Both the position numbers and the translations under genes were made by a program. Source: a virus (lineage: Duplodnaviria > Heunggongvirae > Uroviricota > Caudoviricetes). From it: DNA of 34,950 nucleotides. How positions within the stretch are numbered: position 1 is the first letter of the stretch; every line of letters begins with the position of its first letter. This document shows positions 6,498-8,647 of the stretch, piece by piece. The stretch lies in the IMG/VR virus record IMGVR_UViG_2541047119_000014. The stretch is one strand, 5' to 3'. Under the pieces are notes generated by a model. It had not been told where the DNA came from. It worked only from the letters and a program-made list of their open reading frames with translations, and did not search any database.

Positions 6498-7040
6498 ATG
6501 GCATATTTTTATTTCAAATTAGACCGTGTGCAGACAAATAAATATTTCACCAAATATCAACAGACTGTTTTACCGCTACGCAACAGTATTCTTCGGGCAT
6601 TACTGAAAAATACAGGCGCTGCCGGATTGCGCTTAAAGCCGTTTGCCATGGACGTAATCAGTGAGTTTTATTTTTCTGGTGCTCTGCCTGCGGGCTGGCG
6701 TAAGCGCGATGATGTGGCTTTTATCGGGGACGGACCGTGCTTTATTGCCAGACCTGATGAGTCATGCCCTGAAGGTCCGGCGATTGCCGCAATGATTGAA
6801 ACCGCTGAACGTGAGTTAAGAAAGCGTCCTGATTTCCTTGTCTGGCTCTGTGAAAAGCTGGGGGTAATGAGAATCCCCTCCATGTTTAACACGGACTCCT
6901 GGTGGACCCCGTCGCTCTCCCGTGATGCCCTGTGCGTGGTGTTTAAAGTAGGCGCTTATGGCAGGGAAATAAAAGGGTGTATTCCTGAAGAATGCCAGGA
7001 AATTAAACATTCTGAATATGTGGCGCTGACGGAGGAATAA
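6498..7040 (+). CDS. Hypothetical protein (semi-essential region)
   Basis: 180 aa ORF; first of four tightly packed genes of similar size. Confidence 0.5.
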   Translation: MAYFYFKLDRVQTNKYFTKYQQTVLPLRNSILRALLKNTGAAGLRLKPFAMDVISEFYFSGALPAGWRKRDDVAFIGDGPCFIARPDESCPEGPAIAAMIETAERELRKRPDFLVWLCEKLGVMRIPSMFNTDSWWTPSLSRDALCVVFKVGAYGREIKGCIPEECQEIKHSEYVALTEE

Positions 7041-7043
7041 TTC

Positions 7044-7577
7044 ATGATTGATGCAAAAGTGCTTGAAGGGGTTAAAAACTGGCTGAGTATTTACGGGCGT
7101 CTGACCTGCGGCATTCTGGCTGAAAAAATGAATATGCCGCCATCCTCGATGGTTTATTTTCTGCGTGATGCGGTCGATGCCGGGGTGCTGACGGAATGTA
7201 ACGGTTTTTATGATATTCCGCGTCCCCGCCCGGTGCAGCCGGTTCGTCGCAAATGCAGCCAGGAAGGTGCGGCTGATGATGTTCAGTGGTGCAGCTTCAG
7301 AAAATCCCTGCCGTGGATTGAGGGGCATGATATTCCGTCGATGGCGTGGGAATTTGCTCAGGGCGTACTGACCTGCGAAACCGTTTATGTGGTGGCTGAA
7401 GTTGATGAGCAGGCCATGAAAGAAGGCGTGCCCCAGTTTGTGATGGCGTATATCGACATTCGCCTGGGTGTCATTATCTGCGGTTTAAGCGGCTGGAATA
7501 TCACCGAACATGTTCTGCGTTACCTGATTGTTGACCGGACGGCTGCGCCTGCCGGGATATCTGCGGAGGTGGCGTAA
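7044..7577 (+). CDS. Hypothetical protein (semi-essential region)
   Basis: 177 aa ORF, 3 bp after the previous gene. Confidence 0.5.
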   Translation: MIDAKVLEGVKNWLSIYGRLTCGILAEKMNMPPSSMVYFLRDAVDAGVLTECNGFYDIPRPRPVQPVRRKCSQEGAADDVQWCSFRKSLPWIEGHDIPSMAWEFAQGVLTCETVYVVAEVDEQAMKEGVPQFVMAYIDIRLGVIICGLSGWNITEHVLRYLIVDRTAAPAGISAEVA

Positions 7578-8092
7578 TGTTCTTTAAAACATCAAACCCT
7601 TCCGCGCTGGCTGCGTGGCAAAAATACCAGCAGGACTACAAGAAAGTTAAGGATGAGGCAAAACGTCTTGAGGCCGTGCTGAATGTTGATTGTCGGTCGG
7701 TATTTGTATCCGGTATCAATGGTTTTTATTTTAAAGGACTGCGTTTTACGGATAACAAATATCCTTTTCATCGCGACTTATGGCGAAAACCGACTGCGTC
7801 GAATGGCTGGAGCTGCACGCCGCGCACATCGTGTATTCCCAAAGCCCTGTGCGCTGCCTCTGACGAACTTAACAGTCTGTGGCGTGAATATTCGCCCGTC
7901 ACGTATGCCAGAACCGATGCCCTGTTGTTCTGGCTGGGTATTGATTTCTCGGCAATCCTGTTTGGCCCTGTGGAGTGGTTCTGCGTTGACGATGTGATTT
8001 ACCTTCAGTGCGGCGTAAAACCCGCAAAACAGAAAATGACCGAAATTCTGTCTGATGAGTTTTATGCTGCTGAAAAGCGAGTCAGGGGGTGA
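7577..8092 (+). CDS. Hypothetical protein (semi-essential region)
   Basis: 171 aa ORF; start overlaps the previous stop. Confidence 0.5.
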   Translation: MFFKTSNPSALAAWQKYQQDYKKVKDEAKRLEAVLNVDCRSVFVSGINGFYFKGLRFTDNKYPFHRDLWRKPTASNGWSCTPRTSCIPKALCAASDELNSLWREYSPVTYARTDALLFWLGIDFSAILFGPVEWFCVDDVIYLQCGVKPAKQKMTEILSDEFYAAEKRVRG

Positions 8093-8095
8093 TGT

Positions 8096-8647
8096 ATGAT
8101 GATTTTACAACCCATGGGGCGAAAAGGCCGTGCACCCGCTCATGTCCGTGCGTGGACACCTGAAGAAGATGCACTGCTGATTGCGCTTTATCCATCCACC
8201 CCGGTTAAGGATATTGCTGTCAGGGTAAAAAGAAGTTTCTGGGGTGTACATAACCGGATTGTTTTATTACGCGGTACTTACCCGGAGTTGCTCAAATGCA
8301 AACGTCCAAGATTTAAACATGATGAAGATAAATTTATCCGAAAAAATGCCAGAACGATGACCGGTAAGCAAATAGGAGAATATCTGGGGCGAGACCGGGA
8401 TTCTGTCCACAAACGGGCGCGATATATTGGCGTAAGCATGAAAAAATACGGAGAGTTGCTGCCCTTCACCCGTATACCTGATGATGATGTTCATCTTATT
8501 CGTGAATTACGGGATGCTGAATCACCACGACGTCTTACCTTCCGGGAAATAGGCGAGAAATTTGAATTATCCGAGAGTACGGTGAATTTTATTTATCACC
8601 ATCGCCGGACTGCCGAAGATGTTGTATTACGGGAGTTAATGCCATGA
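8096..8647 (+). CDS. Hypothetical DNA-binding protein with three HTH-like repeats
   Basis: 183 aa; three segments with an HTH-like pattern (WTPEEDALLIALY..., MTGKQIGEYLGRDRDSVHKRARYIG, LTFREIGEKFELSESTVNFIYHH). Confidence 0.5.
   Translation: MMILQPMGRKGRAPAHVRAWTPEEDALLIALYPSTPVKDIAVRVKRSFWGVHNRIVLLRGTYPELLKCKRPRFKHDEDKFIRKNARTMTGKQIGEYLGRDRDSVHKRARYIGVSMKKYGELLPFTRIPDDDVHLIRELRDAESPRRLTFREIGEKFELSESTVNFIYHHRRTAEDVVLRELMP

What the first reader, a model, noticed from the sequence alone, without database searches (positions are those of the whole stretch)
6498..8647. Tightly coupled four-gene cluster of uncharacterised proteins in the semi-essential early region
Four consecutive genes of 171-183 aa (6498, 7044, 7577, 8096) are separated by 0-4 bp, implying translational coupling and a shared function. 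None matches a family I recognise. The fourth has three HTH-like repeats and so probably binds DNA. In transposable phages this region between gam and gemA is where accessory, anti-defence and host-takeover genes accumulate, so this is my best candidate for an undescribed module, though I cannot name its function.
Basis: inference. Interest (0 to 1): 0.6.

Follow-up and report, generated by a model that had tools for sequence, protein, structure and literature searches.

The report
Mu-like phage early accessory genes
The four tightly packed genes are real, but they are relatives of long-catalogued, still-uncharacterised early genes of phage Mu (gp11, gp12, gp9) plus a DUF5420 protein, assembled as a mix-and-match cassette rather than a new fixed four-protein machine.

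Summary
Four + strand ORFs lie at exactly the stated coordinates, between gam and gemA of an Sp18-type Mu-like prophage of Shiga-toxigenic E. coli, and their stops and starts abut or overlap.

They are not orphans:
- B is the orthologue of Mu gp11 (68% identity; Pfam Gp11_C, 139 bits).
- C is the orthologue of Mu gp12 (54% identity).
- D is a basic protein with three helix-turn-helix (HTH) units. Its last two units are colinear with Mu gp9.
- A is a divergent DUF5420 protein, absent from Mu. Profile comparison shows it is a distant paralogue of C.

Tight spacing is not special to these four genes: 15 of 17 junctions in the early operon are equally tight. The set is also mosaic:
- A is absent from Mu, duplicated in one relative, and swapped for 24%-identical alleles in otherwise near-identical phages.
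- D is optional.
- A fifth coupled gene, E (very acidic), belongs to the conserved block.
- The gp12 family occurs on its own in many unrelated phages, sometimes beside RdgC, RecT/YqaJ or a DNA ligase.

The confident AlphaFold model of A has no solved structural relative. Function remains unknown. My best guess, at low confidence, is non-essential modulation of host DNA repair or recombination. This is a known unknown and modestly interesting.

The parts
6441..6469 (+). Conserved intergenic hairpin (GGCGC-TCGCGTCAGGGGACTGCCT-GCGCC) in the 97-nt gap between gam and ORF A. It marks the upstream edge of the cassette.
   Evidence: It occurs once in the window and in 0 of 100 shuffles. It is present at the same junction in Mu, SfMu and all diverged Mu-like loci. 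In the alignment, 95% of cells are paired, against 30-55% when the pairing is slid, and one C:G to U:A covarying pair is seen. In IMG/VR the full hairpin was found in 40 loci: 36 also hold a B homologue and the other 4 are cut short. There is no Rfam match.
6498..7040 (+). ORF A, 180 aa: a divergent DUF5420-type protein, distant paralogue of ORF C, with no counterpart in Mu.
   Evidence: It matches phrog_2260 at 7e-75 and is 40% identical to the SfMu 'DUF5420 family protein'. A profile search retrieves PF17457 proteins at about 1e-72. hhalign against the gp12 family gives probability 87%, E 4e-6 over 158 columns. The AF2 model has pLDDT 89.6.
7044..7577 (+). ORF B, 177 aa: orthologue of Mu gp11, with a predicted N-terminal three-helix (HTH-like) region and a Gp11_C domain.
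   Evidence: Pfam PF25754 matches at 5.7e-41, 139 bits against a cut-off of 27. It is 68% identical to Mu gp11 over 177 aa. The N-terminal motif PSSMVYFLRDAVDAGVLTECNGFYDIPRP is nearly invariant across the family.
7577..8092 (+). ORF C, 171 aa: orthologue of Mu gp12 and member of a widespread phage family that has no Pfam model.
   Evidence: It is 54% identical to Mu gp12 over 169 aa and matches phrog_2314 at 2e-83. An exhaustive search finds 90 representative clusters. None of 76 family members hits a relevant Pfam family.
8096..8647 (+). ORF D, 183 aa: a basic protein with three HTH units (one Myb/SANT-like unit followed by two units colinear with Mu gp9). It is an optional insertion between C and E.
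   Evidence: It matches phrog_323 'transcriptional regulator, D5-like' at 6e-58. BLAST to Mu gp9 gives 31% identity, E 9e-9. Units 1 and 2 align at hhalign 94%. Its pI is 10.0 with net charge +12. It is absent from Mu, SfMu, L044, L046-48 and L050-51.
8644..8955 (+). ORF E, 103 aa: a very acidic protein overlapping D by ATGA.
   Evidence: It matches phrog_6925 at 5e-52. It is about 80% identical in phages whose B and C are only 61-68% identical, and it always directly follows C or D. Its pI is 4.05 with net charge -17. dN/dS is about 0.1-0.15.
5870..6400 (+). gam (Mu Gam, DNA-end-binding protein): upstream landmark.
   Evidence: Pfam Phage_Mu_Gam matches at 1.5e-41. It is 57% identical to Mu Gam.
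10141..10650 (+). gemA: downstream landmark.
   Evidence: Pfam GemA matches at 3.9e-29. It is 44% identical to Mu GemA.

Best explanation
Identity and architecture (shown). The four ORFs are bona fide early-operon accessory genes of an Sp18-type Mu-like prophage. They are counterparts of Mu's semi-essential-early-region ORFs, which have been catalogued for decades but never characterised:
- B is gp11. It has a predicted HTH N-terminus and a Gp11_C domain.
- C is gp12.
- D is an enlarged gp9-type protein with three HTH units, and probably binds DNA.
- A is a divergent DUF5420 protein that is an ancient paralogue of C.

They are transcribed as part of the long early transcript and translated by re-initiation at abutting stop and start codons, like nearly every other gene in that operon. 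They do not form a fixed four-subunit machine. The stable core in enterobacterial Mu-like phages is hairpin-(A)-B-C-(D)-E. The A slot is hypervariable and D is optional. The C family circulates on its own among many other phages.

Mechanism (inferred, low confidence). The A/C-family proteins are non-essential modulators of host DNA-end, recombination or repair transactions, acting alongside Gam. B and D would supply DNA binding or regulation. Together they would improve transpositional replication or survival of phage DNA rather than being required for it.
For: Shown:
- Gene reality and homology.
- Purifying selection on all genes.
- No promoter-like site inside 6400-8650, and tight junctions across the whole operon.
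- Conserved order with variable A and D across 15 Mu-like loci, including Mu and SfMu.
- A-C paralogy: hhalign probability 87%, E 4e-6, full length.
- D carries net charge +12 and has repeated HTH units.

Supporting the inferred mechanism:
- The cassette directly follows gam in Mu-like phages.
- In non-Mu phages the gp12-family gene overlaps or abuts rdgC (Aeromonas lineage).
- It lies within six genes of RecT or YqaJ exonuclease in Pseudomonas and other lineages.
- It directly precedes an ATP-dependent DNA ligase in Vibrio phage SHOU24.
- It also sits in the early region of a second transposable-phage lineage, Klebsiella ST405-OXA48phi1.1.
- The literature places non-essential replication-enhancing and host-interaction functions (arm, cim, sot, kil, gam, gem) in this region of Mu (PMC4553209).
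Against: - There are no PDB sequence or profile hits for A, B, C or D.
- B could not be modelled (pLDDT 54).
- The recombination-gene association holds in only about 4 of roughly 12 non-Mu lineages sampled. Phage early regions mix recombination, anti-defence and host-takeover genes, so guilt by association is weak.
- A's allelic replacement and relaxed dN/dS (0.17-1.06) fit an arms-race role at least as well.
Confidence: 0.5

Rival explanations
1. Anti-defence cassette. A, C and E are inhibitors of host immune systems, for example nuclease or restriction inhibitors, with acidic E acting as a DNA mimic. D and B would act as their regulators, in the way Aca proteins regulate anti-CRISPR genes.
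For: - The A slot behaves like an arms-race locus. It holds about 24%-identical alleles in backgrounds where gam and B are 96-98% identical, is duplicated in tandem in L050, and is absent from Mu.
- A has the highest dN/dS of the set.
- E is extremely acidic (pI 4.05, net charge -17 over 103 aa), as known DNA-mimic anti-restriction proteins are (own knowledge).
- One relative (L043) has an extra gene inserted at the same hairpin-bounded slot.
- Early-operon position and small size are typical of anti-defence genes (own knowledge).
Against: - No library of anti-defence proteins was available to search.
- PADLOC (defence systems) gave only a weak HTH-driven hit for D.
- B, C and E are well conserved under purifying selection (dN/dS about 0.1-0.3), which is less typical of fast-evolving inhibitors.
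- No defence-system dependence is known for Mu gp11 or gp12. Literature searches found nothing.
Confidence: 0.25
2. Obligate four-protein complex with one shared function.
For: - The stops and starts abut or overlap.
- B and C always co-occur and are coupled in all enterobacterial Mu-like loci examined, including Mu.
- A and C are paralogues flanking B, which would be compatible with a hetero-oligomer.
Against: - Mu lacks A and has no D at this position.
- D is absent from 8 of the 17 loci mapped: Mu, SfMu, L044, L046, L047, L048, L050 and L051.
- The gp12 family occurs without A, B or D in Aeromonas, Stenotrophomonas, Pseudomonas, Vibrio, Klebsiella and Acinetobacter phages.
- The same tight spacing links nearly all early genes.
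Confidence: 0.07
3. Regulatory genes. B and D, with A and C as co-factors, are transcription or immunity regulators that tune the early-to-middle switch or superinfection immunity, as in the classical 'cim' phenotype.
For: - D belongs to phrog_323 'transcriptional regulator', has three HTH units and is strongly basic.
- B's N-terminus is predicted as three helices with an invariant motif.
- A conserved inverted-repeat hairpin lies immediately upstream and tracks with B.
- cim was mapped to this region of Mu (PMC4553209).
Against: - The PHROG label is an annotation, not a tested function.
- B's HTH rests on a low-confidence model (pLDDT 54) and has no Pfam HTH hit.
- A and C have no DNA-binding signature.
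- D is dispensable in many relatives, Mu included.
Confidence: 0.15

Closest known systems
Bacteriophage Mu gp11 (Mup11; formerly E10-E12) and gp12 (Mup12; formerly E13)
   Same: B is 68% and C is 54% identical to them over their full length. The order is the same, directly after gam. The gp11 stop and gp12 start overlap in both phages, and the same conserved hairpin lies upstream.
   Different: In the window an extra gene (A) sits between the hairpin and B. D and E follow C, where Mu has gp13 and gp14. The Mu proteins themselves have no assigned function, so the homology transfers no mechanism.
DUF5420 (Pfam PF17457), e.g. Shigella phage SfMu ACQ86_gp11
   Same: A is 40% identical to the SfMu protein and occupies the same slot between gam and the gp11 homologue. 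A profile built on A retrieves PF17457 proteins at about 1e-72. They share the N-terminal YFKL motif and the C-terminal IKHSEF(I/V)A(I/L)TEE motif.
   Different: A itself does not reach the Pfam model, with no hit even at E<=0.1. It belongs to a separate allele class, 21-38% identical to PF17457 members. DUF5420 has no known function, and no paper in the library mentions it.
Mu gp9 (E8) / PHROG 323 'transcriptional regulator, D5-like'
   Same: Residues 66-166 of D align with the whole of gp9 (31% identity, E 9e-9). Both consist of repeated HTH units.
   Different: D has an additional N-terminal Myb/SANT-like unit. It lies downstream of gp12 rather than upstream of gam, and the window has no gp9 homologue upstream of gam.
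Accessory genes of phage recombination modules (genes next to RdgC, RecT/YqaJ, Sipho_Gp157 or lambda-type gam)
   Same: gp12-family genes in non-Mu phages sit in such modules. In Mu-like phages they follow Gam.
   Different: There is no sequence or fold similarity to any characterised recombination, annealing or nuclease-inhibitor protein. The association is positional only.

Membership tests
Mu gp11 family (Pfam PF25754 Gp11_C) | Match to PF25754 above the gathering score | tested here: met
   139.2 bits against a cut-off of 27, covering profile positions 1-78 of 78.
Mu gp11 family (Pfam PF25754 Gp11_C) | Full-length colinearity with Mu gp11 and the same genomic position | tested here: met
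   68% identity over residues 1-177 against 1-176. It follows gam and precedes the gp12 homologue.
Mu gp12 family | Full-length similarity to Mu gp12 and the position after gp11 | tested here: met
   54% identity over 169 aa, E 6e-66. phrog_2314 matches at 2e-83. Synteny is shown.
DUF5420 (PF17457) | Match to the Pfam model at or above its threshold | tested here: not met
   ORF A gives no Pfam hit at E<=0.1.
DUF5420 (PF17457) | Demonstrable homology to family members | tested here: met
   40% identity, E 4e-43 to the SfMu DUF5420 protein. A profile search retrieves more than 100 PF17457-annotated proteins at E 1e-60 to 1e-73.
Mu gp9 / phrog_323 HTH regulators | Profile match and colinearity with gp9 | tested here: met
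   phrog_323 matches at 6.3e-58. gp9 aligns to D residues 66-166.
Mu gp9 / phrog_323 HTH regulators | Sequence-specific DNA binding or transcriptional regulation | not testable with these tools
   Support is indirect only: pI 10 and net charge +12, and sub-threshold Pfam HTH hits.
Obligate multi-gene module (operonic complex) | Components co-occur across relatives | tested here: not met
   A is absent from Mu, and D is absent from 8 of 17 mapped loci. C-family genes occur without A, B or D in other phages.
Obligate multi-gene module (operonic complex) | Gene spacing distinguishes the set from its neighbours | tested here: not met
   15 of 17 junctions from MuB to gemA are overlaps or gaps of 12 nt or less.
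Known anti-phage defence systems (PADLOC) | Match to a defence-protein model | tested here: not met
   The only hit is a weak HTH-driven match of D to a homing-endonuclease model (E 0.0017). A, B and C give none.
Known anti-defence proteins (Acr, Ocr/ArdA-type mimics and others) | Homology to a characterised inhibitor, or inhibition of a defence system | not tested
   No anti-defence library was available. Pfam, NCBIfam and the PDB gave no such hit. E's acidity is only suggestive.
Characterised recombination or repair proteins | Sequence or fold similarity | tested here: not met

The most novel reading that the evidence does not exclude
DUF5420 and the Mu-gp12 family together form one large, undescribed phage protein superfamily. 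Its alpha/beta fold has no solved relative. Members would act on host DNA-end, recombination or repair machinery, or on a DNA-sensing defence system, next to Gam, RdgC or RecT. In enterobacterial Mu-like phages two paralogues (A and C) would work with the lineage-specific HTH protein gp11, an optional triple-HTH protein, and a highly acidic DNA-mimic-like partner (E). The whole set would form a hairpin-bounded, hot-swappable counter-defence or repair-takeover cassette.
Probability: 0.2. Interest if true: 0.6.

Novelty: new member of a known kind. Interest (0 to 1): 0.3.

Why it matters
Mu is the model transposable phage, yet its gp9, gp11 and gp12 have had no function since they were first sequenced. 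This window gives no answer, but it sharpens the question in four ways:
- gp12 belongs to a family spread far beyond Mu-like phages.
- DUF5420 is a paralogue of gp12.
- The slot upstream of gp11 is a hypervariable insertion point bounded by a hairpin.
- An acidic fifth protein travels with the block.

If any of these proteins modulates RecBCD, RecA or ligase pathways, or a defence system, the result would apply to prophages in about 4% of complete E. coli genomes (233 of 5426), to many Salmonella genomes, and to the classical 'arm' and 'cim' phenotypes of Mu. As it stands, the finding is a correct but ordinary pointer to known hypothetical genes.

Tried and rejected
1. Direct family assignment. 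Pfam, NCBIfam and PADLOC gave nothing for A or C, and only Gp11_C for B.

2. PDB sequence searches. Single-sequence searches and family-profile searches gave only noise, such as MIF at E 0.1 and engrailed at 0.07.

3. Structure route.
- The run of MutS hits (E 0.2-0.8, TM 0.2) was rejected as not significant.
- BFVD gave three uncharacterised phage proteins at TM about 0.7.
- B's model was too poor (pLDDT 54) to search.
- The afdb50 library was unavailable.

4. A-C paralogy. Plain BLASTP was not significant and small profiles gave E 0.021. It became convincing only with deeper alignments.

5. The search for related loci with gp12-family alignments failed for lack of a conserved stretch. I replaced it with a degenerate EILGSEF DNA pattern. 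About 80 of the 91 genome-contig hits were chance matches and were discarded by hmmsearch.

6. A possible link to the D3/JBD30 factors that license Gabija (PMC12407980). gp12-family tblastn found no D3 hit, so I dropped it.

7. Literature searches for Mu gp11 or gp12, Mup11 or Mup12, and DUF5420 returned nothing relevant.

8. The hairpin as a known RNA: no Rfam match, and folding energy is unexceptional (z -0.35).

9. The - strand ORF 6816-7328 (170 aa), which overlaps A and B, was treated as spurious. Homology and purifying selection support the + strand genes.
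Full report
**Observation**

One search lists four + strand ORFs at exactly the reported coordinates:

| ORF | Coordinates | Length |
|---|---|---|
| A | 6498-7040 | 180 aa |
| B | 7044-7577 | 177 aa |
| C | 7577-8092 | 171 aa |
| D | 8096-8647 | 183 aa |

The junction sequences are TAA-TTC-ATG, TAATG and TGA-TGT-ATG. A further ORF, E (8644-8955, 103 aa), overlaps D by ATGA. Each start is preceded by a GGAGG-like Shine-Dalgarno sequence inside the upstream gene.

The ORFs are real genes:
- Each hits a PHROG family at E 6e-58 to 4e-106.
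- They have many homologues.
- Pairwise dN/dS against close relatives is about 0.04-0.38 for B, C and D and about 0.1-0.15 for E in all but one comparison. A is less constrained, at 0.17-1.06.

Upstream lies gam (Pfam Phage_Mu_Gam). Downstream lie gemA and a Mor/C-family gene. The window also encodes a Mu-type transposase, MuB and a Ner-like protein.

The sequence is 100% identical to a prophage of E. coli E2855. The region is found in 233 of 5426 complete E. coli genomes, mostly STEC. It matches the 'inserted Mu-like phage' inside two Stx phage records. It is therefore an Sp18-type Mu-like prophage (literature context).

**What the genes are**

BLASTP against the Mu proteins and the other family searches give:
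- **B** is gp11: 68% identity over the full length, with Pfam Gp11_C at 139 bits.
- **C** is gp12: 54% identity over 169 aa.
- **D**, residues 66-166, aligns with gp9 at 31% identity, E 9e-9. Both fall in phrog_323, 'transcriptional regulator, D5-like'.
- **A** has no Mu counterpart. It is 40% identical to the SfMu gene annotated 'DUF5420 family protein', which occupies the same slot.

A does not itself reach the Pfam DUF5420 model. A profile built from A-type sequences nevertheless retrieves more than 100 PF17457 proteins from Salmonella and E. coli at about 1e-60 to 1e-73. NCBIfam, PADLOC and PDB sequence searches add nothing.

D consists of three HTH-like units:
- Units 1 and 2 are a clear internal duplication (hhalign 94%, E 1e-7).
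- Units 2 and 3 are colinear with gp9.
- D is strongly basic, with pI 10.0 and net charge +12.

**A and C are paralogues**

By eye the two families share three features:
- an N-terminal [YF][YF]K motif;
- a central P-[DR] and W pattern;
- a C-terminal E-I-x-x-S-E-F-x-A motif.

BLASTP is not significant and small profiles give E 0.021. With deeper alignments (30 A-type and 76 gp12-type sequences) hhalign gives probability 87% and E 4e-6 over 158 columns spanning both proteins end to end. I take this as good, though not conclusive, evidence that DUF5420 is a divergent branch of the gp12 family.

**Is it a four-gene module?**

Spacing does not single these genes out. From MuB to gemA, 15 of 17 junctions are overlaps or gaps of 12 nt or less. 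No promoter-like site lies inside 6400-8650. The four genes are simply part of the polycistronic early operon.

I mapped synteny in 17 loci: Mu, SfMu, one of the Stx phage records (L003), five Sp18-like IMG/VR contigs and nine diverged IMG/VR contigs with B at 61-68% identity. The recurrent order is gam - (A) - B - C - (D) - E.

- B and C are always together.
- A is absent from Mu and tandemly duplicated in L050. It is present as only 23-24%-identical alleles in phages whose gam and B are 93-98% identical to the window's (L015, L024, L035, L039).
- D is present only in the Sp18-like set and in L043, L049 and L052.
- E always directly follows C or D. It is the most conserved member, at about 80% identity where B and C are 61-68%.

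**The gp12 family beyond Mu**

An exhaustive HMMER search with C finds 90 representative clusters. About 75 are full-length proteins of 165-190 aa at 24-34% identity. None of them has a Pfam family.

I scanned for a degenerate DNA pattern encoding the conserved EILGSEF motif and filtered the hits with an HMM. This recovered members from:
- Aeromonas, Stenotrophomonas and Pseudomonas genomes;
- about 50 IMG/VR contigs.

tblastn finds the family in cultured Vibrio, Klebsiella, Stenotrophomonas and Acinetobacter phages. Every record annotates it as hypothetical.

In these phages no gam, gemA, MuA/B, A or B homologue is nearby. The one exception is a B3/D3112-type transposable Klebsiella phage. 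There the gene again lies between the transposition genes and gemA.

Neighbours vary, but they include:
- RdgC, directly adjacent, with overlapping stop and start in the Aeromonas locus L084;
- RecT and YqaJ-type exonuclease within six genes;
- Sipho_Gp157;
- an ATP-dependent DNA ligase immediately downstream in Vibrio phage SHOU24.

About 4 of roughly 12 independent non-Mu lineages show such a recombination neighbour.

**Structure**

With a 30-sequence alignment, AlphaFold2 gives a confident model of A: pLDDT 89.6 and pTM 0.82. It is an alpha/beta protein with eight strands and five helices. The fold searches gave:
- Foldseek against the PDB: nothing at E<=1e-3. The weak MutS run (E 0.2-0.8, TM 0.2) is not significant.
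- BFVD: three uncharacterised phage proteins of 178-196 aa at TM 0.70-0.72. Their identifiers could not be resolved, and they may be gp12-family members.

B could not be modelled usefully (pLDDT 54). Only a three-helix N-terminus is suggested, and that region is almost invariant in the family. The budget for structure prediction was then exhausted, so C, D and E were not modelled.

**Mechanism**

*Shown.* These are conserved, co-transcribed accessory genes. D is a basic protein with several HTH units. A and C are paralogues. The cassette is mosaic.

*Inferred.* The block follows Gam in Mu-like phages, and the gp12 family repeatedly sits next to RdgC, RecT/YqaJ or ligase elsewhere. The classical genetics of this Mu region assigns it non-essential replication-enhancing and host-interaction functions: arm, cim, sot, kil, gam and gem (PMC4553209). 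My preferred reading is therefore that A and C modulate host DNA-end, recombination or repair transactions, with B and D supplying DNA binding or regulation.

*Rivals.* The main rival is an anti-defence role. It is supported by the hypervariable A slot, by A's relaxed constraint, and by the extreme acidity of E (pI 4.05, net charge -17), which resembles DNA-mimic inhibitors. I cannot separate these two readings with the tools available. An obligate four-protein complex is largely excluded by the phyletic pattern.

**Side observation**

The 97-nt gap between gam and A contains a hairpin, GGCGC-TCGCGTCAGGGGACTGCCT-GCGCC, at 6441-6469.
- It is conserved in Mu, SfMu and every diverged relative, although the flanking proteins are only 30-65% identical.
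- The outer stem shows a C:G to U:A exchange in one clade. The stem is extended by GA:TC in Mu and by AAA:TTT in one copy in L043.
- 95% of cells pair, against 30-55% when the partner strand is slid.
- It occurs once in the window. In IMG/VR it occurs only at this junction.
- L043 carries two copies bracketing an extra inserted gene. This suggests that the hairpin marks an insertion or recombination boundary, or an RNA processing or attenuation site.
- It has no Rfam match.

**Verdict**

The genes are new members of known, functionally uncharacterised families: Mu gp11, gp12 and gp9, and DUF5420. This analysis adds four things:
- the link between DUF5420 and gp12;
- the breadth of the gp12 family and its neighbourhoods;
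- the mosaic anatomy of the cassette, including the acidic gene E;
- the conserved hairpin.

Interest is modest (0.3).

Noticed in passing
window 6441-6469 (+), within the gam-ORF A intergenic gap 6401-6497: A conserved hairpin, GGCGC-N19-GCGCC with the invariant loop GCGTCAGGGGACTGC, is present at the same junction in Mu, SfMu and all diverged enterobacterial Mu-like phages. One stem pair covaries. There is no Rfam match. In IMG/VR it is found only next to gp11 homologues.
   Followed up: partly
window 8644-8955 (+): ORF E (103 aa) overlaps D by ATGA and is extremely acidic: pI 4.05, 19 Asp+Glu against 2 Lys+Arg. It is about 80% identical in phages whose gp11 and gp12 homologues are only 61-68% identical, and it is absent from Mu and SfMu. 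It is a candidate DNA-mimic-type protein. No structure prediction was possible.
   Followed up: partly
L043 4505-5185 (IMG/VR Mu-like contig): Two copies of the hairpin bracket an extra gene of about 175 aa inserted between gam and the A-like gene. Its sequence looked MazG-like to me by eye, but Pfam gave no hit. This suggests that the hairpin bounds an insertion hotspot.
   Followed up: partly
L015, L024, L035, L039 about 5425-5994; L050 4862-5988: The A slot carries alleles only 23-24% identical to the window's A in phages whose flanking gam and B are 93-98% identical to the window's. L050 has two tandem A paralogues. This is allelic replacement and duplication at a single slot.
   Followed up: partly
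window 10720-11145 (+): The single Mor/C-family gene after gemA is closer to Mu C (39% identity) than to Mu Mor (26%). It is followed directly by the endolysin homologue at about 11217, so the middle region seems shorter than in Mu. A terminator-like hairpin lies at 10655-10678, just after gemA.
   Followed up: no
window 1423-3513 (+): The transposase carries the Pfam Mu-transpos_C and Mu DNA-binding domains, but it gave no tblastn hit to MuA at E<=1e-4. It is much more diverged from Mu than MuB (48% identity) or gp11 (68%).
   Followed up: no
window 4514-5858 (+): Five small, tightly packed ORFs between MuB and gam (75-106 aa) have no Pfam family. Only one of them (4742-5008) has a homologue among Mu gp5-gp9, a weak match to kil (33% over 39 aa, E 2e-4). 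This stretch is as uncharacterised as the reported cluster.
   Followed up: no
L084 1216-2693 (Aeromonas piscicola prophage): An rdgC homologue (Pfam RdgC, 1.7e-124) overlaps the start of a gp12-family gene. An MT-A70 methyltransferase lies just upstream. This is the tightest non-Mu association found for the family.
   Followed up: partly
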